Origin: Enterobacteria phage vB_EcoM_IME339
Sequence record: MH051915
Strand: one strand, 5' to 3'
Length of the DNA stretch: 64,000 bases
A program made the translations under genes and the position numbers. Under the pieces are notes generated by a model that was not told the origin of the DNA, searched no databases, and saw only the letters and a list, made by a program, of their open reading frames with translations. Below are positions 10,035 to 60,978 of the stretch, piece after piece (the stretch's first letter is position 1; every line of letters begins with the position of its first letter).

Positions 10035-10237
10035 ATATAATTAATAAGATTTTTGGAATTCAGTACATTAAGGTCACATATAAAGTAACGTATAAAGGTC
10101 CGTATACCGATGAACATGAAGAGCCACAAGTTCAGTCTATTATATTAGAAAAGGACCCTAACTGGCCAGTTGAATTTCGTCTTCCTTGCTATGGTCATTG
10201 GGCTGATGTTGAAATTATAAGTATTGAAAATGTCTGA
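10031..10237 (+). CDS. Hypothetical protein, 68 aa
   Basis: ORF, ATGA overlap. Confidence 0.5.
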   Translation: MNIINKIFGIQYIKVTYKVTYKGPYTDEHEEPQVQSIILEKDPNWPVEFRLPCYGHWADVEIISIENV

Positions 10238-10688
10238 GTTAGAGATTAGAAGCAATTTTAGATGGCCATCATGTGCATTAAGTAATTTCGCCCAATGGCC
10301 TTTTGTTATGGATGGTATCCAATTTGGAGGTCTCGAAGGATTCCTCCAAGGATGCAAGGTGAAAAATGTTGAACAACAGCGTCGTATATTTGGGTTATCC
10401 GGGCTTGCCGCCCAACAAGCTGGAAGGTCTTATGCAAGAGCTCAGGACCGTGGCACGTTGTTCTGGCTTGGAACTCCGTTTTCAAGATATTCCGAAGCAT
10501 GGAAAGAATTATACACAAATGCATATTTTGAAGCAGCGATCCAAAACAAGGGATTTCGCAATGCATTACAAGCCTCGAAAGGAAAAGTTTTGAAGCATAG
10601 CATGGCTAGTGGTCTAACAAAAGATGATACAATACTAACCGAAGCTGAATTTATTGATGTGTTAAACCTATTAAGAGACTCTCTATGA
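10230..10688 (+). CDS. NADAR/YbiA-like (DUF1768) domain protein, about 152 aa
   Basis: LSNFAQWPFVMDGIQFGGLEGFLQGCK matches the NADAR signature (YbiA FSNFAAWPIKVDGKTWPTSEHYFQAQK); track start 10224 is TTG, ATG at 10230. Confidence 0.7.
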   Translation: MSELEIRSNFRWPSCALSNFAQWPFVMDGIQFGGLEGFLQGCKVKNVEQQRRIFGLSGLAAQQAGRSYARAQDRGTLFWLGTPFSRYSEAWKELYTNAYFEAAIQNKGFRNALQASKGKVLKHSMASGLTKDDTILTEAEFIDVLNLLRDSL

Positions 10689-11548
10689 AGCCAACTATTT
10701 TGACTGATATTGATGGAGTATGTTTAAGCTGGCAATCAGGCCTTCCTTATTTTGCTCAGAAATATAATCTTCCATTAGAACATATTTTAAAAATGATCCA
10801 AGATGAGAAATTTATTTCTCCAGGTAAACTCTTTAATTGTGACGAAGAACTTGGCGTCAAGTTAATTGAAAAATACAATCGTTCAGATTTTATTCGTTAT
10901 TTGTCTCCGTATAAAGATGCCCTGTGTGTAATTAACAAATTAAAAGAAGATTATAATTTTGTAGCTGTTACAGCATTGGGTGATTCTATTGACGCTCTGT
11001 TGAATCGTCAATTTAATTTGAATGCTCTTTTTCCTGGTGCCTTCTCAGAAGTAATGATGTGTGGTCATGATTCTTCAAAAGAAGAGTTATTCAAAAAGGC
11101 AAAAGAGAAATATAACGTAATTTGTTATATTGACGATCTCGCTCACCACTGCGACCATGCGAGTGAAATATTAAATGTTCCGGTTTATTGGATGGCTCGA
11201 GGAGAGCGTGATAAAATTCCAAAAACTGCGCAGCGAGTTTATACATGGAATGATGTAGAAAATAAGCTTTTTTCACCAAAGGAAAATAAAGAAAGTTTTG
11301 ATAGTGAAAAAGCTATAAAAGATGTAATTGAGAAGATGGTTAAAAACGATTCTTTTCGTTGGAACACTACCTGGAGAACTCCTGGATTTAATCCGTATAA
11401 TCCATATTATACACATCCATATAATCCATATTATACACACCCGTATCATATGAATCCATTCCATACGTGGAGTTATACCAAGCCTGGCGATGCAGGGTAT
11501 TTTAATAGATTTACTAGTGGTGATAATATTTTCCAAGGAGCATTCTAA
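10685..11548 (+). CDS. HAD-superfamily hydrolase-like protein with C-terminal Pro/Tyr/His-rich repeat tail, 287 aa
   Basis: N-terminal motif I ILTDIDGV (DxDG), later CYIDDLAHHCD; C-terminus NPYNPYYTHPYNPYYTHPYHMNPFHTW. Confidence 0.65.
   Translation: MKPTILTDIDGVCLSWQSGLPYFAQKYNLPLEHILKMIQDEKFISPGKLFNCDEELGVKLIEKYNRSDFIRYLSPYKDALCVINKLKEDYNFVAVTALGDSIDALLNRQFNLNALFPGAFSEVMMCGHDSSKEELFKKAKEKYNVICYIDDLAHHCDHASEILNVPVYWMARGERDKIPKTAQRVYTWNDVENKLFSPKENKESFDSEKAIKDVIEKMVKNDSFRWNTTWRTPGFNPYNPYYTHPYNPYYTHPYHMNPFHTWSYTKPGDAGYFNRFTSGDNIFQGAF
11401..11448 (+). repeat. Imperfect 24-bp tandem direct repeat (2 copies) encoding the PYNPYYTH repeat
   Basis: tccatattatacacatccatataa / tccatattatacacacccgtatca. 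Confidence 0.6.
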
Positions 11549-11817
11549 TGTTTGTCGTTCACACTATTTATGAAAATGAAGGTAATACTACGCGTGATTA
11601 CGGTCACGTAAATCAATTTTTTAGATGCAATCCAGAGTTCCGAGCTCAAAAGGATGAACGAATTTTTAAAAAATGTGTAGAGCAAGGTTTCATTTATATC
11701 AAGCACTGGATGCAAGGAAATAAAGTTAGAACTACATATCATAGGTCTTTAACTGAGCTTAATGATGAATTGATTTATAATAGAGCTGTAAATCAAACTC
11801 TGAAGGATGAACAATGA
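11548..11817 (+). CDS. Hypothetical protein, 89 aa
   Basis: ORF with AAGGAG SD immediately upstream of ligase. Confidence 0.55.
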   Translation: MFVVHTIYENEGNTTRDYGHVNQFFRCNPEFRAQKDERIFKKCVEQGFIYIKHWMQGNKVRTTYHRSLTELNDELIYNRAVNQTLKDEQ

Positions 11818-13277
11818 TTCTTAAAATTCTGAATGAAATAGCATCTATTGGATCAACTAAGCAGAAGCAAGCAATTCTTGAAAAGAATAAAGATAATGAA
11901 TTGCTTAAACGAGTATATCGTCTGACTTATTCTCGTGGGTTACAGTATTATATCAAGAAATGGCCTAAACCTGGTATTGCTACCCAGAGTTTTGGAATGC
12001 TGACTATTACCGATATGCTTGACTTCATTGAATTCACGTTAGCTACTCGGAAATTGACTGGAAATGCTGCAATTGAGGAATTAACTGGATATATCACTGA
12101 TGGTAAAAAGGATGATGTTGAAGTTTTGCGTCGAGTTATGATGCGAGACCTTGAATGTGGTGCTTCAGTATCTATTGCAAACAAAGTTTGGCCAGGTTTA
12201 ATTCCTGAACAACCTCAAATGCTAGCAAGTTCTTATGATGAAAAAGGCATTAATAAGAATATCAAGTTTCCAGCTTTTGCACAGCTAAAAGCAGATGGAG
12301 CTCGGTGTTTTGCTGAAGTTCGAGGTGATGAATTAGATGATGTTCGTCTTTTATCACGAGCTGGTAATGAATATCTAGGATTAGATCTTCTTAAGGAAGA
12401 GTTAATCAAAATGACTGCTGAAGCCCGCCAGATTCATCCAGAAGGTGTGTTAATTGATGGCGAATTGGTATACCATGAGCAAGTTAAAAAGGAACCAGAA
12501 GGCCTAGATTTTCTTTTTGATGCTTATCCTGAAATTAGTAAAGCTAAAGAATTCGCCGAAGTAGCGGAATCTCGTACTGCTTCTAATGGAATCGCCAATA
12601 AATCCTTAAAAGGAACCATTTCTGAAAAAGAAGCTCAATGCATGAAGTTTCAGGTCTGGGATTATGTCCCGTTGGTAGAAATATACGGTCTTCCGGCATT
12701 TCGTTTAAAATATGATGTACGTTTTTCTAAACTAGAACAAATGACATCAGGATATGATAAAGTAATTTTAATTGAAAACCAAGTAGTAAATAACCTAGAT
12801 GAAGCTAAGGTAATTTATAAAAAGTATATTGACCAAGGTCTCGAAGGTATTATTCTCAAAAATACCGATGGATTGTGGGAAAATGCTCGTTCAAAAAATC
12901 TCTATAAATTTAAAGAAGTAATTGATGTTGATTTAAAAATTGTAGGAATTTATCCTCACCGTAAAGACCCTACTAAAGCGGGTGGGTTTATTCTTGAATC
13001 AGAGTGTGGAAAAATTAAAGTAAATGCAGGTTCAGGCTTAAAAGATAAAGCCGGTGTAAAATCGCATGAACTTGACCGTACTCGCATTATGGAAAACCAA
13101 AATTATTATATTGGAAAAATTCTAGAGTGCGAATGCAACGGTTGGTTAAAATCTGATGGCCGCACTGATTACGTTAAATTATTTCTTCCGATTGCGATTC
13201 GTTTGCGTGAAGATAAAACTAAAGCTAATACATTCGAAGATGTATTTGGTGATTTTCATGAGGTAACTGGTCTATGA
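11814..13277 (+). CDS. 30: ATP-dependent DNA ligase (gp30), 487 aa
   Basis: Translation MILKILNEIASIGSTKQKQAILEKNKDNELLKRVYRL... recognised as T4 DNA ligase; contains adenylation-site KADGAR (motif I). Confidence 0.95.
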   Translation: MILKILNEIASIGSTKQKQAILEKNKDNELLKRVYRLTYSRGLQYYIKKWPKPGIATQSFGMLTITDMLDFIEFTLATRKLTGNAAIEELTGYITDGKKDDVEVLRRVMMRDLECGASVSIANKVWPGLIPEQPQMLASSYDEKGINKNIKFPAFAQLKADGARCFAEVRGDELDDVRLLSRAGNEYLGLDLLKEELIKMTAEARQIHPEGVLIDGELVYHEQVKKEPEGLDFLFDAYPEISKAKEFAEVAESRTASNGIANKSLKGTISEKEAQCMKFQVWDYVPLVEIYGLPAFRLKYDVRFSKLEQMTSGYDKVILIENQVVNNLDEAKVIYKKYIDQGLEGIILKNTDGLWENARSKNLYKFKEVIDVDLKIVGIYPHRKDPTKAGGFILESECGKIKVNAGSGLKDKAGVKSHELDRTRIMENQNYYIGKILECECNGWLKSDGRTDYVKLFLPIAIRLREDKTKANTFEDVFGDFHEVTGL

Positions 13278-26318: not shown

Positions 26319-26609
26319 TTAAAAGCTTTCTTCTACTTCATCGTCTGAATCTTCTAATTCAGCTCTTTTTCCTGCCAAAGCATCTCTCACAGAGATGTCA
26401 TCAGTATCTTTTAATTCAGTTTCTTTAACTCTTTTCTTATAATAAGCTTCAAGTTCTTCTAGACCTTCTAATGTTTGACAATCTTTAACTCTTTTCTTAT
26501 AATAAGCTTCAAGTTCTTCTAGACCTTCTAATGTTTGACAAGAGGCAATTTTACCCATAAATTCATCAATAGAAGCTTCATAAAGAAATTGTTTAAATTC
26601 TAGTAACAT
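26319..26609 (-). CDS. uvsW.1: UvsW.1 carrying an internal 20-aa tandem duplication (96 aa here)
   Basis: Track start 26621 is TTG; ATG at 26609 with GGAG SD; the two 20-aa repeats sit in register as CQTLEGLEELEAYYKKRVKD / CQTLEGLEELEAYYKKRVKE, with an identical 19-residue core. Confidence 0.8.
   Translation of the reverse strand: MLLEFKQFLYEASIDEFMGKIASCQTLEGLEELEAYYKKRVKDCQTLEGLEELEAYYKKRVKETELKDTDDISVRDALAGKRAELEDSDDEVEESF
26422..26541. repeat. Perfect 60-bp tandem direct duplication (2 copies) inside uvsW.1
   Basis: 26422-26481 is identical to 26482-26541. Confidence 0.9.
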
Positions 26610-26634
26610 CTTTTTCTCCAAAGGGCCGAAGCCC

Positions 26635-28146
26635 TTATAAATTAACTGTTTTCATTACGTAATTAAATTTTTCATCTGCGTAGCGCTGAATACGATCAAT
26701 ACCGTGTTTTAAAAGATAGTTCAAATGAACATATTTCTTTTTCGTATTAGCAGATTTTGGCTTAACACCGCAATCATCAATGAGGTCCCAGACCGTTGCG
26801 ATTGTTTTAGAACCGTGCTTACGTAATACGCGACCTATTGTTTGCAATACAATAATTTTAGATTTAACACCGTGCGCTAAAACAACGTGATGTAGATTTT
26901 TAACTGAAATACCAGTAGAAAATACACCATAACTAGCTACTATAATTATTCCTTTACCGTTTTCAGCTAAGGTTTTCATTACGTTGCGTGTTTCGGTATC
27001 AACTTCCCCTGATACGTAATAAACTTTATCGTATTCATTTTTAATTAAATCGAAAATAGCTTTACCGTGCGATACGTGTTTAAACATGACAAAAGCGTTT
27101 TCATCTTTTTGTGCAAGTTTAATAGCTAATTTAGCGATCCATTTATTTCTTTTACTGAGCCCAGTAATAATTTTTATTTCTTCTTGGTAAGTTTTTCCCT
27201 TTAATTTAGTAGTGAACTCATCGGGATAGCGAAGAAAAATACTATTAATTTTTAGCTCAGTTACTTGTCCATCTTCCATTAATTTAGAAGTCGTTACTGG
27301 CTTAAATATTTCACCAAACATTCCAACATACTGCATGATATTGGCTTTGCCATCACGTAATGAACCAGACAAACCGAATTTGAACATGCAGTTATTTAAA
27401 CCTGATATGATAGATGAAATACTTTTTCCTGTAGCAAGATGGCATTCATCATTCATCATCATTCCAAACTGTGAGAACCATTCTTTTGGTTGTTTTACTA
27501 CAGTTTGCCATGTACCAACAATTACCGGTGCATCATTTTTATATTTATCATCTTTTGATGCTCCGCCGCCGATTTTCTTTATCATTGCATGACTGAATAA
27601 ACGATAATCAACAAAGTCATCAGCCATCTGAGTTGTTAAAGCAGTTGTTGGAACAATGATAAGAATTTTACCTTCATAATTTTCCAAATAATAACGTGCA
27701 AGCAAAGCTTGAATTAAAGATTTACCTGCGGATGTTGGAAGATTAAGAATTCTACGACGATTAACTAATCCTTCGAACACTGCATCTTTTTGATACCAGT
27801 GTGGTTCAATTCTTTTATTTCCTGAATAGATTTCTAACTTAGAAAGCCATTCATCAAAATCTTTTCTTGATAATTCTTCTTTTTCGTTAATTTGCGGGTC
27901 AATCCAAGCTTTATAGCCAAAGTTATCGCAGAACTTTTTAATTTGCCCGACTAAACCAAACGGAAGAAGGCGATTATAATCTAATAGACGGATTCGTCCA
28001 TCCCAGTGACCATACTTGTATTTCGGATTAAAACGATACCCATCAGCTTCGAAGCTAAAGAAATCACGGAGTTCATGAAATGTACTTTCTTCACAATCAA
28101 TTCTCACGTGACTAAAATCATAAAAATGCACTTTAATGTCAGTCAT
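26635..28146 (-). CDS. uvsW: UvsW RNA-DNA/DNA helicase (SF2)
   Basis: Walker A LPTSAGKS, DExH-type NDECH; length 503 aa and synteny. Confidence 0.93.
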   Translation of the reverse strand: MTDIKVHFYDFSHVRIDCEESTFHELRDFFSFEADGYRFNPKYKYGHWDGRIRLLDYNRLLPFGLVGQIKKFCDNFGYKAWIDPQINEKEELSRKDFDEWLSKLEIYSGNKRIEPHWYQKDAVFEGLVNRRRILNLPTSAGKSLIQALLARYYLENYEGKILIIVPTTALTTQMADDFVDYRLFSHAMIKKIGGGASKDDKYKNDAPVIVGTWQTVVKQPKEWFSQFGMMMNDECHLATGKSISSIISGLNNCMFKFGLSGSLRDGKANIMQYVGMFGEIFKPVTTSKLMEDGQVTELKINSIFLRYPDEFTTKLKGKTYQEEIKIITGLSKRNKWIAKLAIKLAQKDENAFVMFKHVSHGKAIFDLIKNEYDKVYYVSGEVDTETRNVMKTLAENGKGIIIVASYGVFSTGISVKNLHHVVLAHGVKSKIIVLQTIGRVLRKHGSKTIATVWDLIDDCGVKPKSANTKKKYVHLNYLLKHGIDRIQRYADEKFNYVMKTVNL

Positions 28147-36484: not shown

Positions 36485-36725
36485 TATTCATCATCCTCGT
36501 CTTCGTCATCTTCGTCAGAGTCTTTGTCTTTTTTGTCGTCTTTATCATCACTATCTTCGTCATCATCCTCGTCTTCAGGTTCTTCACCTTCGATTAAGAA
36601 ATTACGAGCGATAGCGATTTTTTCTTCTTTAATTAAATCAATCGTTCTTGCAGCCATGGCTTCAGCAAATAATTTACGAGCGGCTACGAGGTCGTTTGAT
36701 TTAATAGCTTCAATTAAACCTTCCA

Positions 36726-59276: not shown

Positions 59277-60978
59277 CAATTGTGTATTGACCAGATGAAA
59301 TAGAACTCATAGATGCCATTTTTTCTGTCCAATCGCCACCAACGTCCCAATCAACTGTACCAGCAACTTTCCAAGAAAGATTTCCATTTACTGTATTAGT
59401 CTGATTTCCTTCAACTAAAGTGGTAGCATCTCCTTTAACTGTAATGTCAGCATTACCTTCAACTACAATAGTAACATTACCTTTGACTAGGATAGTTCCA
59501 TTACCTTCAACTGTCTTAGTTTCATCGCCACGCACAAATATTGTATTGCTTCCATCTATTTGGTGGAGACGATTATCCATGTTGTAATAAATTTCTGACC
59601 CACCGACGTTAGTCTTTTTATCGCCAGCTACCAAAAAATTACCATCAGCATTTGTTATATCATACAAATTATCAACAGTTTTTCTTGTTCTTCTTCCTGA
59701 TGGTGATACTTCCTCATACGTTCCAGTCGGATGAACTAATCTGTATCGTTCTTGTCCCGGGGTATCGTCAAATTCCTGAATATGACCGCTTTCAGTTTCC
59801 ATTGTGTGAACATACGGATATTCACCTTTATATGAAGAAACAGGTTCTTTAAATAAAATTCTCGAATCATTCGGAATAGGAGGGTCAGCTGGATCAGAAG
59901 ACTTTGCTACAGTAGCAGCCATTGCTGACAAAGACCTAGCCGGTGTTTTCACTTCAATACCGTATGATTCCAAATTCCCTGTAAGAATAATCATGGTAAC
60001 ACGGGATGCACGGCCTTTTGTTTGTTGATACCACAATGAATCACGACCAGCTTTATATGCTTTTTCCCAATCTCCGGCTAACATAGCAGTTAACATTGTG
60101 TTAAATTTAGCTACACCGCCAACACCCATCTGAAATGCCATATTTTCTAATGCCATTTGACGAGAACGATTAACTGCCTGCCAAACTGGGCCAACTTTAG
60201 AATGTGATTTAATGTCGCGTTGCATATCAGCCAAATCACGTTCAAATAAAGTTACCGCTTCTTCCATTGTAATAGAACCTGGATTTCCGGTAATTTCACG
60301 ACCAACTTGTTTTGATAAAACTTTATTAATTTGAGTCATATCACGAACTGGCTGCTTCATGATAAGATGACCAATACCAATTGTCGGATATCCTTCAGTA
60401 TCCCAATAAACTTTTAGTCTTAATCCTTCATCACGGCGAAGCATTTCAGCCATTGACATATTTGGATTATCATCAGTTGGAATTTCTGATAGCGGTCTAT
60501 CATCGGGATTTATCGCAGTGTCTAGATTGCTATCTTGGATAATATTAGAAGACGAATCATATCCTACTTCTCCGCCTTGGTTTAATACGTTAGTATCATT
60601 TCCTAGACGTCTAGGATACTGTCCAGTTGGGTCAGAAAATCCTTCAAGTCTATTAGGCTTTTCGCGAACTATTCCGCCATATGTGCCAAGGACAATTCCG
60701 TTAGTTTTCCATTTGTCTAAAAAATGACCATAAACTCTAGTTCCTTCTACTGGCCCTGTAACAGAACCTCCAATTCCAGACATTGCTGCAGAAGTTATAG
60801 GTTGAATAACTGACATCCATGGCAATTTATCGGTTGGAATACCCATTACGTCGCCTTGTGCTCTTTGAGGTGGATGCAGACCAACCACACGAACACGAAC
60901 ACGACCTAATTTTAATGGATCCATTCTATCTTCAACAACACCAACAAACCAATTGAGGTTATTACTTATCATTTCCAT
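59251..60978 (-). CDS. 5: Baseplate central spike with tail lysozyme domain gp5
   Basis: 575 aa; lysozyme-like middle domain and C-terminal VxGxxxxx beta-helix repeats. Confidence 0.95.
   Translation of the reverse strand: MEMISNNLNWFVGVVEDRMDPLKLGRVRVRVVGLHPPQRAQGDVMGIPTDKLPWMSVIQPITSAAMSGIGGSVTGPVEGTRVYGHFLDKWKTNGIVLGTYGGIVREKPNRLEGFSDPTGQYPRRLGNDTNVLNQGGEVGYDSSSNIIQDSNLDTAINPDDRPLSEIPTDDNPNMSMAEMLRRDEGLRLKVYWDTEGYPTIGIGHLIMKQPVRDMTQINKVLSKQVGREITGNPGSITMEEAVTLFERDLADMQRDIKSHSKVGPVWQAVNRSRQMALENMAFQMGVGGVAKFNTMLTAMLAGDWEKAYKAGRDSLWYQQTKGRASRVTMIILTGNLESYGIEVKTPARSLSAMAATVAKSSDPADPPIPNDSRILFKEPVSSYKGEYPYVHTMETESGHIQEFDDTPGQERYRLVHPTGTYEEVSPSGRRTRKTVDNLYDITNADGNFLVAGDKKTNVGGSEIYYNMDNRLHQIDGSNTIFVRGDETKTVEGNGTILVKGNVTIVVEGNADITVKGDATTLVEGNQTNTVNGNLSWKVAGTVDWDVGGDWTEKMASMSSISSGQYTIDGSRIDIG

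What the first reader, a model, noticed from the sequence alone, without database searches (positions are those of the whole stretch)
10685..11548. HAD-like hydrolase ORF with an unusual Pro/Tyr/His-rich C-terminal repeat encoded by a 24-bp tandem repeat
The N-terminus carries a canonical HAD motif I (ILTDIDGV) and a later DD-containing segment, suggesting a phosphatase. The C-terminal ~60 residues are low-complexity (NPYNPYYTHPYNPYYTHPYHMNPFHTW), encoded by two imperfect 24-bp tandem DNA copies at 11401-11448. The gene overlaps the NADAR-like ORF by 4 nt and shares its operon; HAD phosphatases and NADAR enzymes co-occur in bacterial metabolite damage-control pathways, so the two may act as a pair. 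Repeat copy number may vary between isolates.
Basis: partly seen in the sequence, partly recalled or inferred. Interest (0 to 1): 0.4.

Follow-up and report, generated by a model that had tools for sequence, protein, structure and literature searches.

The report
T4 gp30.2 phosphatase with variable tail
This is the T4-type phage gene 30.2: an intact but uncharacterised HAD-family phosphatase whose disordered C-terminal tail carries a real 8-amino-acid duplication that varies between isolates, so it is a catalogued gene of unknown role rather than a new kind of system.

Summary
ORF 10685-11548 (287 aa) is the ortholog of T4 gene 30.2, in the conserved order 30.3 (AdfN/NADAR), 30.2, 30.1 (DUF3045), 30 (DNA ligase).

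Residues 1-195 fold confidently as a HAD hydrolase with a helical C1 cap. All four catalytic motifs (D8/D10, T96, K132, D150/D151) are conserved in 97 homologs, and pN/pS is about 0.06. The nearest characterised relatives are 5'(3')-deoxyribonucleotidases (NT5C), a link that distant family members make significant.

The 24-bp repeat is real. In-frame units 11399-11422 and 11423-11446 encode NPYYTHPY twice, and 0 of 40 shuffles reach its score. It is not an artefact, because 55 GenBank records carry it. Phage D5505 has exactly one unit, and other isolates carry other in-frame indels.

The repeat lies in a hypervariable, predicted-disordered tail, in the spacer between two short motifs conserved across genera. 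About a third of homologs lack the tail.

The proposed NADAR/HAD "metabolite damage-control pair" is not supported. The neighbour is a proven DNA ADP-ribosylglycohydrolase, and HAD-ligase adjacency is the more conserved linkage. Substrate and biological role remain untested; a nucleotide phosphatase is the best guess.

The parts
10230..10688 (+). Upstream gene 30.3 (AdfN, NADAR-family DNA ADP-ribosylglycohydrolase). This is context, and its stop codon overlaps the start of the target ORF.
   Evidence: Pfam Phage_30_3, E=5.8e-69. T4 annotation. Function from PMC11825919.
10685..11548 (+). Target ORF, 287 aa: ortholog of T4 gene 30.2.
   Evidence: ORF list. PHROG 420, E=3e-89. 99.3% nt identity to vB_EcoM_SA20RB, with 653 phage records matching. 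Same gene order as T4.
10685..11269 (+). HAD catalytic domain with inserted helical C1 cap (residues 1-195).
   Evidence: AF2 pLDDT 94-98 over residues 1-190. Foldseek hits to HAD hydrolases at E 2.5e-8 and to cdN, mdN and 3bwv. pN/pS 0.05-0.08.
10697..10720 (+). HAD motif I, ILTDIDGV. D8 is the predicted nucleophile and D10 the predicted general acid/base.
   Evidence: D8 and D10 invariant in 97/97 homologs. Aligns to the DxD motif of 5'(3')-deoxyribonucleotidase 2jao.
10721..10948 (+). C1 cap: helices between strand 1 and strand 2 (residues ~13-88), carrying invariant W16, S18, Y64, S67, D78 and N84.
   Evidence: DSSP helices H16-26, 32-40, 46-49, 54-65, 68-72 and 77-86. Invariant columns.
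10958..10981 (+). HAD motif II, FVAVTALG (T96).
   Evidence: T in 94 and S in 3 of 97 homologs. Lies at the end of strand 91-96.
11072..11086 (+). HAD motif III lysine (K132, within SSKEE).
   Evidence: K132 invariant in 97/97.
11123..11140 (+). HAD motif IV, CYIDDL (D150, D151; predicted Mg2+ ligands).
   Evidence: D150 and D151 invariant in 97/97. Lies at the end of strand 145-150.
11306..11347 (+). Amphipathic helix at the start of the tail (residues 208-221).
   Evidence: Helix 207-220 in both AF2 models, with block pLDDT 83-87. A helix-like segment aligns here in other genera.
11372..11386 (+). Tail motif A, WRTPG. The pattern W-(R/K/V)-x-P-(G/D) is conserved across genera.
   Evidence: Tail alignments.
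11390..11470 (+). Pro/Tyr/His-rich spacer NPYNPYYTHPYNPYYTHPYHMNPFHTW (residues 236-262): the length-variable hotspot.
   Evidence: Mean pairwise difference 0.59 at 11405-11446, against 0.02-0.06 over the rest of the gene. In-frame length variants. pLDDT 54 falling to 40.
11399..11422 (+). Tandem repeat unit 1 (AATCCATATTATACACATCCATAT = NPYYTHPY).
11423..11446 (+). Tandem repeat unit 2 (AATCCATATTATACACACCCGTAT = NPYYTHPY). One of the two units is absent from phage D5505; which one cannot be told, as the alignment places the gap within the first copy.
11486..11515 (+). Degenerate tail motif B, GDAGYFNRFT. The T4 allele reads GGIEYLYNRPT and other genera read GTGIEYLxxQPT.
11516..11548 (+). 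C-terminal SGDNIFQGAF plus stop. It contains the Shine-Dalgarno AAGGAG (11535-11540) for gene 30.1, whose ATG (11548) overlaps the TAA stop by 1 nt.
   Evidence: There are no synonymous differences in the last 11 codons in the four Tequatrovirus comparisons made (T4, T2, UFV05, ES21).
11548..11817 (+). Downstream gene 30.1 (DUF3045); context.
   Evidence: Pfam DUF3045, E=1.2e-64.
11814..13277 (+). Gene 30, ATP-dependent DNA ligase. This is context and the most conserved neighbour of the HAD gene.
   Evidence: Pfam DNA_ligase_A_M, E=8.4e-33. Adjacency in 7 of 9 other lineages.

Best explanation
The ORF is the ortholog of bacteriophage T4 gene 30.2, a near-universal gene of T4-like phages (Straboviridae). 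Shown here: residues 1-195 form a catalytically intact HAD-superfamily enzyme of the DxD type with a helical C1 cap. Inferred from established HAD chemistry: Asp8 attacks a phosphomonoester to form an aspartyl-phosphate intermediate, Asp10 acts as general acid/base, Thr96 and Lys132 hold the phosphate, and Asp150/Asp151 hold Mg2+. Because a C1 cap encloses the active site, the substrate should be a small molecule. The closest characterised relatives are 5'(3')-deoxyribonucleotidases, so the most likely substrate is a (deoxy)nucleoside monophosphate. This would give the phage control over the dNMP pool released by host-DNA breakdown, as T5 Dmp does. Shown here: residues about 196-287 are an accessory tail made of one helix followed by a predicted-disordered Pro/Tyr/Trp/His-rich segment. 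The 24-bp duplication sits in the variable-length spacer between two short motifs conserved across genera. It arose by slippage among NPY/HPY codons and is one of several in-frame length alleles circulating in Tequatrovirus. Inferred: the tail tethers or regulates the enzyme through a partner acting in trans, and its rapid change suggests a fast-evolving interaction.
For: Identity and context: PHROG 420, E=3e-89. The gene order 30.3/30.2/30.1/30 matches T4. 653 phage records match at the DNA level and 1437 match the N-terminal domain at the protein level.

Fold: two AF2 models give pLDDT above 90 for about residues 1-190. Foldseek against PDB returns 121 hits at E<=1e-3, all of the 50 best (those listed) being HAD-fold. 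The lowest rmsd values (4.4-5.3 A, TM 0.63-0.71) are to cdN, mdN and the 3bwv deoxyribonucleotidase-like protein.

Motifs: D8, D10, K132, D150 and D151 are invariant and T96 is T or S in all 97 homologs. pN/pS is 0.05-0.08.

Nucleotidase link: the family profile's best PDB hit is cdN 2jao (E=0.068), with W16-x-S-G-L aligned to F-E-S-G-L. Distant relatives found with the family profile (1274 clusters) are homologous at hhalign probability 100%. They hit Pfam NT5C in 37 of 73 cases (best 4.2e-10) and PDB 3bwv at 1.3e-6 over the full length, plus mdN and the Sdt1/SSM1 nucleotidases.

Tail: pLDDT is below 56 from residue 221 and below 50 from residue 250 in the window allele. It is also below 50 in the T4 allele, which has an intact motif B. 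36 of 97 homologs have tails of 25 aa or less and 58 of 97 have tails of 40 aa or more, enriched in P (10.8% against 4.3%) and W (3.4% against 1.3%). Motifs A and B align across genera.

Repeat: D5505 differs by a clean 24-bp deletion. Tail-segment lengths are 213, 222, 225, 228, 231, 240, 246, 249 and 255 bp, all multiples of 3. Diversity is 5-20 times higher at 11405-11521 than elsewhere in the gene.

Precedent: T5 Dmp, a dNMP phosphatase, counters the Kongming defence by draining dAMP (bioRxiv 10.1101/2024.12.20.629578). T-even host-DNA breakdown yields m6-dAMP, which triggers another defence (bioRxiv 10.64898/2026.01.15.699771).
Against: No biochemical or genetic data on gp30.2 were found in the searchable literature. 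The query itself matches no Pfam or NCBIfam model. The link to NT5C is therefore transitive, and the query-level PDB hit is only marginal (E=0.068). Structural matches to dehalogenases, epoxide hydrolases and sugar-phosphate phosphatases have equal or better E-values, so the substrate class is not fixed by fold. A dNMP phosphatase seems counter-productive for T4, which recycles host dNMPs. T5 Dmp is not detectably related beyond motif I (hhalign probability 1.3%). No partner for the tail is known. Motif B is degenerate in this window's allele (GDAGYFNRFT), which weakens the idea that it is an essential docking site.
Confidence: 0.6

Rival explanations
1. One reading: gp30.2 works as a pair with the upstream NADAR enzyme (AdfN). 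It would either dephosphorylate an ADP-ribose-derived product or be the unidentified T-even-specific factor that AdfN needs to work in vivo.
For: The 4-nt ATGA overlap implies co-translation. NADAR lies next to or near the HAD gene in Tequatrovirus, an RB69-like phage, Acinetobacter phage and Slopekvirus. The two genes have almost identical genus distributions in phage genomes, 1437 against 1509 records. [quoted passage not shown]
Against: AdfN alone removes ADP-ribose from DNA in vitro, and ectopic AdfN alone rescues RB69. ADP-ribose has no phosphomonoester for a HAD phosphatase to attack. No NADAR gene lies within about 4 kb (the flank held) of the HAD gene in Klebsiella VPA32, Shewanella Thanatos-like, Aeromonas AS-zj, a distant metagenomic phage, KVP40-like Vibrio phage or Pseudomonas phage Paride. 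Genome-level co-occurrence may only reflect that both are near-core Straboviridae genes.
Confidence: 0.12
2. gp30.2 is a nucleic-acid end-healing 3'-phosphatase that prepares nicks for the adjacent DNA ligase.
For: The HAD gene lies directly upstream of, or within two small ORFs of, the ligase gene in 7 of 9 other lineages examined plus the window. There are weak hits to the polynucleotide kinase PHROG 415 (E=0.0017) and to phage PNKP phosphatase domains by Foldseek.
Against: The protein has a roughly 75-residue helical C1 cap. By established HAD-superfamily rules, macromolecule-directed members such as PNKP are capless (C0). These phages already encode Pnk with its own HAD_PNKP domain, in the same gene cluster in Acinetobacter and Shewanella phages. 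Conserved gene order in T4-like replication modules can be purely historical.
Confidence: 0.08
3. The tail has no function of its own. It is a drifting, slippage-prone extension kept in frame only so that ribosomes terminate at the start codon of gene 30.1, preserving translational coupling and the embedded Shine-Dalgarno.
For: About a third of homologs have no tail. The tail is hypervariable and predicted disordered. AAGGAG lies 7 nt upstream of the 30.1 ATG, which overlaps the 30.2 stop. Both alternative frames hit stops at or before 11451, so a frameshift would uncouple 30.1. There are no synonymous changes in the last 11 codons.
Against: Motif A (W-x-x-P-G) and motif B (GTGIEYLxxQPT) are conserved at the protein level across genera whose N-terminal domains are only about 50% identical. 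This indicates selection on the peptide itself. Tails of 40 aa or more persist in 58 of 97 homologs.
Confidence: 0.2
4. The tail tethers the enzyme to the gp45 sliding clamp at the replication fork through a clamp-binding motif.
For: The T4 allele reads G-I-E-Y-L-Y near the C-terminus, a conservative variant of the T4 clamp-binding motifs. These were read from the T4 genome as gp43 SLDFLFG, gp55 SLDFLYEAND and gp33 TLDFLL. The neighbouring ligase carries an internal GLDFLF.
Against: The window allele lacks it (GDAGYF), and a regex scan did not find the motif in this ORF. Three of five core positions differ even in T4. In T4 the motif lies 15 residues from the C-terminus. The resemblance is short and untested.
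Confidence: 0.06

Closest known systems
Bacteriophage T4 gene 30.2 product (NP_049815, 'hypothetical protein'; PHROG 420; CDD PHA02597 as cited in a GenBank note)
   Same: Orthologous. The N-terminal domain is 98-99.5% identical across many Tequatrovirus isolates, identity to the T4-type cluster representative is 94% overall, and the position between 30.3 and 30.1/30 is the same. Some GenBank records already label it 'haloacid dehalogenase-like hydrolase', "5' nucleotidase" or "5'-3' deoxyribonucleotidase".
   Different: This allele is 287 aa against 278 aa in T4. It has the extra NPYYTHPY unit and a different motif-B allele (GDAGYFNRFT against GGIEYLYNRPT). No function has been published for either, as far as the searchable literature shows.
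5'(3')-deoxyribonucleotidases, Pfam NT5C PF06941 (human/mouse cdN and mdN; S. epidermidis 3bwv)
   Same: HAD fold with a helical C1 cap, a DxDGV motif I, an aromatic residue 8 positions after the nucleophile followed by x-S-G-L, and a DD motif IV. Distant members of the gp30.2 family score on the NT5C model.
   Different: The query itself does not reach any Pfam threshold, and sequence identity is about 15-20%. The family has its own invariant set (W16, S18, Y64, S67, D78, N84, R108, N111, R172) and, in many phages, a long disordered tail that NT5C enzymes lack.
Phage T5 Dmp (deoxynucleoside 5'-monophosphatase)
   Same: An early phage-encoded, Asp-dependent dNMP phosphatase with a DxDGT-like N-terminal motif. 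It shows that a phage can benefit from draining dNMPs, since it counters Kongming.
   Different: Not detectably homologous beyond motif I (hhalign probability 1.3%) and has no Pfam match. The similarity is a functional analogy only and is untested for gp30.2.
T4 polynucleotide kinase/3'-phosphatase (Pnk, HAD_PNKP domain)
   Same: A HAD DxD phosphatase encoded in the same early gene region of T4-like phages, with weak profile and structure hits.
   Different: The Pnk phosphatase is capless and acts on nucleic-acid ends (family knowledge). gp30.2 has a C1 cap, and both genes coexist in the same genomes.

Membership tests
HAD (haloacid dehalogenase-like) hydrolase superfamily, DxD phosphatase type | Rossmann-like alpha/beta core fold | tested here: met
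   AF2 pLDDT above 90 for residues 1-190. Foldseek against PDB gives 121 hits at E<=1e-3, all of the 50 best (those listed) being HAD-fold.
HAD (haloacid dehalogenase-like) hydrolase superfamily, DxD phosphatase type | Motif I DxDx(T/V) at the end of strand 1, with the second Asp marking phosphatases/mutases | tested here: met
   T-D8-I-D10-G-V; D8 and D10 are invariant in 97/97 homologs.
HAD (haloacid dehalogenase-like) hydrolase superfamily, DxD phosphatase type | Motif II Thr/Ser, motif III Lys, motif IV acidic pair | tested here: met
   T96 (94 T, 3 S); K132 in 97/97; D150 and D151 in 97/97. Their positions at strand ends are as expected.
HAD (haloacid dehalogenase-like) hydrolase superfamily, DxD phosphatase type | Match to a curated HAD profile above threshold | tested here: not met
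   The query matches 0 Pfam families at E<=1 and 0 NCBIfam families. Among close homologs, 22 of 97 give only sub-threshold hits to PF00702 (best 9.6e-5).
HAD (haloacid dehalogenase-like) hydrolase superfamily, DxD phosphatase type | Mg2+-dependent phosphoryl transfer through an aspartyl-phosphate intermediate | not testable with these tools
   Needs an enzyme assay with a D8N control.
5'(3')-deoxyribonucleotidase family (Pfam NT5C, PF06941) | Profile match to PF06941 | tested here: inconclusive
   The query has no hit. 17 of 97 close homologs hit (best 1.2e-4) and 37 of 73 distant relatives hit (best 4.2e-10). The distant set is homologous to the query family at hhalign probability 100%.
5'(3')-deoxyribonucleotidase family (Pfam NT5C, PF06941) | Helical C1 cap, and an aromatic residue 8 positions after the nucleophile that stacks on the base (role recalled from the mdN/cdN structures) | tested here: met
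   Cap helices lie between strands 4-7 and 91-96. The invariant W16 aligns with Phe of cdN 2jao in DGVLADFESGL. The stacking role is from memory and was not tested.
5'(3')-deoxyribonucleotidase family (Pfam NT5C, PF06941) | dNMP phosphatase activity | not testable with these tools
   Needs a substrate screen.
T4 gp30.2 orthologous group (PHROG 420) | Full-length profile match and conserved position upstream of 30.1 and ligase | tested here: met
   PHROG 420, E=3e-89, residues 1-276. Synteny with T4.
gp45 sliding-clamp-binding proteins of T4 | (S/T/G)-L-D-F-L-(F/Y/L) motif | tested here: not met
   The motifs were verified in T4 gp43, gp55 and gp33. A regex scan of the window finds the motif only in the ligase (nt 12501), not in this ORF.
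PNKP-type HAD 3'-phosphatases | Capless (C0) architecture that exposes the active site to polynucleotide ends | tested here: not met
   A roughly 75-residue helical cap is present. The only sequence link is a marginal PHROG 415 hit (E=0.0017).

The most novel reading that the evidence does not exclude
gp30.2 is a counter-defence enzyme whose hypervariable tail marks an arms-race interface. It would be either the missing T-even-encoded factor that AdfN (gp30.3) needs to neutralise DarT1 in vivo, or a T-even counterpart of T5 Dmp that removes dNMP-derived alarm signals such as the dAMP/dITP precursor or m6-dAMP. The repeat-driven changes in tail length would then tune binding to a variable partner.
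Probability: 0.1. Interest if true: 0.65.

Novelty: already known. Interest (0 to 1): 0.27.

Why it matters
As it stands, this is an annotation improvement. A gene labelled 'hypothetical' in most of about 1400 T4-like phage genomes can be called a catalytically intact C1-capped HAD phosphatase of the nucleotidase-like branch. Its tail is a documented length-polymorphic hotspot that could serve as a strain marker.

It would matter more if the enzyme proves to control nucleotide pools or nucleotide-derived immune signals during infection. The same holds if it is the unidentified phage factor that the adjacent anti-DarT enzyme AdfN requires. Both are open questions in current phage-defence work, and a single T4 knockout plus an enzyme screen would test them directly.

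Tried and rejected
1. Literature. Searches for gp30.2 / gene 30.2 found nothing functional. The one mention is a figure legend in the AdfN paper.

2. Homology to T5 Dmp. hhalign aligns motif I only, at probability 1.3%. Rejected as a relative and kept as an analogy.

3. Yersinia phiR1-RT-type long tail (P0066) as a fused DUF3045 domain. My reading by eye was not confirmed by BLASTP (E>=2) or Pfam. Only the metagenomic P0013 is a genuine HAD-DUF3045 fusion ORF, and its single short contig may be an artefact.

4. Promoter or terminator hidden in the repeat. The scan found 11 promoter-like sites against 9.4 expected, and 0 terminators. Rejected.

5. Intramolecular docking of the tail. A second AF2 run used the T4-type allele (intact motif B) and a cleaner tail alignment, and still gave pLDDT below 50 for the tail. 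No support.

6. NADAR about 36 kb from HAD in Slopekvirus. I first inferred this from coordinates in different records. A direct tblastn on the locus corrected it: NADAR lies about 480 bp upstream there.

7. Recurrence of tail motif B elsewhere in the window. None found.

8. A 3-copy repeat allele. None among the 60 best-matching records; one record has +9 bp.

9. AF-multimer tests of gp30.2 with AdfN, gp45 or gp30.1 could not be run with the tools available.
Full report
WHAT IS THERE

The window is a T4-like (Tequatrovirus) phage genome. ORF 10685-11548 (+ strand, 287 aa) sits in the same gene order as in T4. Upstream is 30.3 (Pfam Phage_30_3, E=5.8e-69). Downstream are 30.1 (DUF3045, E=1.2e-64) and gene 30, the ATP-dependent DNA ligase (E=8.4e-33) (T4 annotation).

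The ORF matches PHROG 420 ('unknown function') at E=3e-89 but matches no Pfam model. At the DNA level it is 99.3% identical to Escherichia phage vB_EcoM_SA20RB, and 653 phage records match it. It is therefore the ortholog of T4 gene 30.2. Most records call it 'hypothetical protein'; a few call it 'haloacid dehalogenase-like hydrolase', "5' nucleotidase" or "5'-3' deoxyribonucleotidase".

CHECK OF THE OBSERVATION

All descriptive points hold.
- The N-terminus reads MKPTILTDIDGV, and a CYIDDL segment lies at residues 147-152.
- The ATG overlaps the upstream TGA as ATGA.
- Tandem Repeats Finder reports 11391-11446, period 24, 2.3 copies, 90% matches, score 98.
- In frame, the two units are 11399-11422 and 11423-11446. 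Each encodes NPYYTHPY, and they differ by two synonymous changes.
- Only four arrays in the 64-kb window score 50 or more.
- None of 40 shuffles reached 98; the maximum was 74.
- The repeat is not an artefact. In 55 GenBank records the 161 bp across it match as one ungapped piece.

THE ENZYME DOMAIN

A 97-sequence alignment of homologs shows D8, D10, K132, D150 and D151 invariant and T96 as T or S throughout. These are the four HAD motifs.

AlphaFold2 gives pLDDT 94-98 for residues 1-190. The layout is strand 4-7, six helices (16-86), strand 91-96, then alternating helix and strand. This is a Rossmann-like core with a helical C1 cap inserted after strand 1.

Foldseek against PDB returns 121 hits at E<=1e-3, all of the 50 best (those listed) being HAD-fold proteins. 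The tightest superpositions (rmsd 4.4-5.3 A, target TM 0.63-0.71) are cytosolic and mitochondrial 5'(3')-deoxyribonucleotidases and the S. epidermidis deoxyribonucleotidase-like protein 3bwv.

The family profile's best PDB sequence hit is cdN 2jao. It is marginal (E=0.068), but motif I and the following W16-x-S-G-L segment align with F-E-S-G-L.

A profile search of 1.84 billion representatives found 1274 related clusters. Most are about 190-210 aa, meaning the domain without a tail. A set of 73 of the more distant ones is homologous to the query family at hhalign probability 100%. They hit Pfam NT5C in 37 of 73 cases (best 4.2e-10). They also hit 3bwv at E=1.3e-6 over the full length, plus mdN and the yeast pyrimidine nucleotidases.

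Across Tequatrovirus, pN/pS for codons 1-232 is 0.05-0.08.

I conclude with high confidence that this is a functional DxD-type HAD phosphatase. By the established rule that C1/C2-capped HADs act on small molecules, and by its nearest relatives, I conclude with moderate confidence that the substrate is a nucleotide monophosphate. That last step is inference; nothing here measures activity.

THE TAIL AND THE REPEAT

Residues about 196-287 form one helix (207-220, pLDDT about 85) followed by a segment with pLDDT 56 falling to 39.

A second model used the T4-type allele and a cleaner tail alignment. It was equally unconfident for the tail, so nothing suggests the tail docks back onto the enzyme.

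Across 97 homologs, 36 have tails of 25 aa or less and 58 have tails of 40 aa or more. The long tails are enriched in Pro (10.8% against 4.3%) and Trp (3.4% against 1.3%).

Aligned across genera, the long tails share one architecture:
- a helix;
- motif A, W-(R/K/V)-x-P-(G/D) followed by P-(W/Y)-(W/Y);
- a variable spacer;
- motif B, GTGIEYLxxQPT;
- a short C-terminus.

In this phage the NPY/HPY-rich repeat lies exactly in that variable spacer. Motif B is degenerate here (GDAGYFNRFT, against GGIEYLYNRPT in T4).

Among 16 Tequatrovirus sequences, mean pairwise difference is 0.02-0.06 along most of the gene. It rises to 0.59, 0.30 and 0.26 in the last three 45-column windows (11405-11521).

Phage D5505 differs from the window by a clean 24-bp deletion of one unit. 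Other isolates have tail segments of 213, 222, 225, 228, 231, 240, 246, 249 and 255 bp, all multiples of three. These include a 6-bp SG duplication and 9-bp HPY-type indels. No 3-copy allele was seen among the 60 best matches.

The repeat is one product of recurrent slippage in a codon-repeat hotspot.

One caveat applies to the last 11 codons. They contain the AAGGAG Shine-Dalgarno of gene 30.1, whose ATG overlaps the 30.2 stop, and they show no synonymous variation in the four Tequatrovirus comparisons made. Part of the in-frame constraint may therefore come from translational coupling rather than from tail function. Against a purely neutral tail, motifs A and B are conserved between genera whose N-terminal domains are only about 50% identical.

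CONTEXT AND THE NADAR IDEA

The upstream gene is T4 30.3, renamed AdfN. [quoted passage not shown] It is not a metabolite-repair enzyme, so the 'damage-control pair' rationale does not transfer.

HAD and NADAR genes have nearly identical genus distributions in phage genomes, with 1437 and 1509 records. Both are near-core Straboviridae genes, so this says little about coupling.

I examined nine other lineages.
- A NADAR gene lies beside or near the HAD gene in three: an RB69-like phage, an Acinetobacter phage and Slopekvirus.
- DNA ligase lies directly downstream, or within two small ORFs, in seven.
- The KVP40-like Vibrio phage and the Pseudomonas jumbo phage Paride have neither neighbour.

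The ligase adjacency suggests an end-healing role. However, the C1 cap argues against a polynucleotide substrate, and a separate Pnk (HAD_PNKP) is present in the same clusters.

One point keeps a modified pairing idea alive. The AdfN paper reports that AdfN cannot protect uninfected cells or the unrelated phages T5 and Bas25. It suggests that an additional T-even protein is needed. The translationally coupled gp30.2 is an obvious but untested candidate.

OTHER LEADS

The T4 allele's GIEYLY resembles the clamp-binding motifs, which I verified in T4 as gp43 SLDFLFG, gp55 SLDFLYEAND and gp33 TLDFLL. The window allele lacks it, and a regex scan finds the true motif only in the ligase.

T5 Dmp shows that a phage dNMP phosphatase can be a counter-defence, acting against Kongming. 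T-even host-DNA breakdown also creates a dNMP-derived defence trigger, m6-dAMP. Dmp is not homologous to gp30.2 beyond motif I.

VERDICT

The feature is a known, widely sequenced gene with no published function that I could find. The domain assignment already appears sporadically in GenBank annotations. What this analysis adds is the catalytic-motif and fold evidence, the transitive link to NT5C nucleotidases, the conserved tail architecture, and the placement of the repeat in a length-polymorphic spacer. Interest is modest unless the counter-defence or AdfN-cofactor reading proves true.

Noticed in passing
window 26422-26541 (- strand ORF 26319-26621, just downstream of the 503-aa UvsW-like helicase ORF 26635-28146): A perfect 60-bp tandem duplication (2.0 copies, 100% identical, TRF score 240). 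It repeats a 20-aa segment (CQTLEGLEELEAYYKKRVK-D/E) in a 100-aa ORF and looks like a very recent in-frame duplication.
   Followed up: partly
window ~12501 (gene 30 DNA ligase, residues ...EPEGLDFLFDAYPE...): The ligase carries an internal GLDFLF that matches the clamp-binding motifs read from T4 gp43 (SLDFLFG), gp55 (SLDFLYEAND) and gp33 (TLDFLL). This fits a ligase-sliding clamp contact, which I recall from the literature but did not check here.
   Followed up: partly
window 59404-59512 and 36488-36576: Two further imperfect tandem arrays: 24 bp x 4.5 at 73% matches, and 18 bp x 4.9 at 64% matches. Not examined.
   Followed up: no
protein P0013 (metagenomic contig, 1378 bp): A single ORF fuses the gp30.2 HAD domain to a DUF3045 (gp30.1) domain (Pfam E=8.3e-15). 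This could be a Rosetta-stone hint that 30.2 and 30.1 act together, or it could be a lost stop codon or an assembly artefact.
   Followed up: partly
window 11535-11548: The Shine-Dalgarno AAGGAG and the ATG of gene 30.1 are embedded in the last codons and stop of 30.2 (TAATG overlap). The last 11 codons show no synonymous differences in the four Tequatrovirus comparisons made (T4, T2, UFV05, ES21), although pS is about 0.2 elsewhere in the gene.
   Followed up: partly
window 10366-10593 (+): A 75-aa ORF in another frame lies inside gene 30.3. It corresponds in position to the internal gene 30.3' annotated in T4 and T2.
   Followed up: no
loci L022, L023, L024, L025, L027, L029: The gp30.2-type HAD gene stays immediately next to the ATP-dependent DNA ligase gene in very divergent T4-like phages (Klebsiella, Acinetobacter, Shewanella, Aeromonas, Slopekvirus and an unclassified metagenomic phage). 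The small ORFs around them are replaced.
   Followed up: partly
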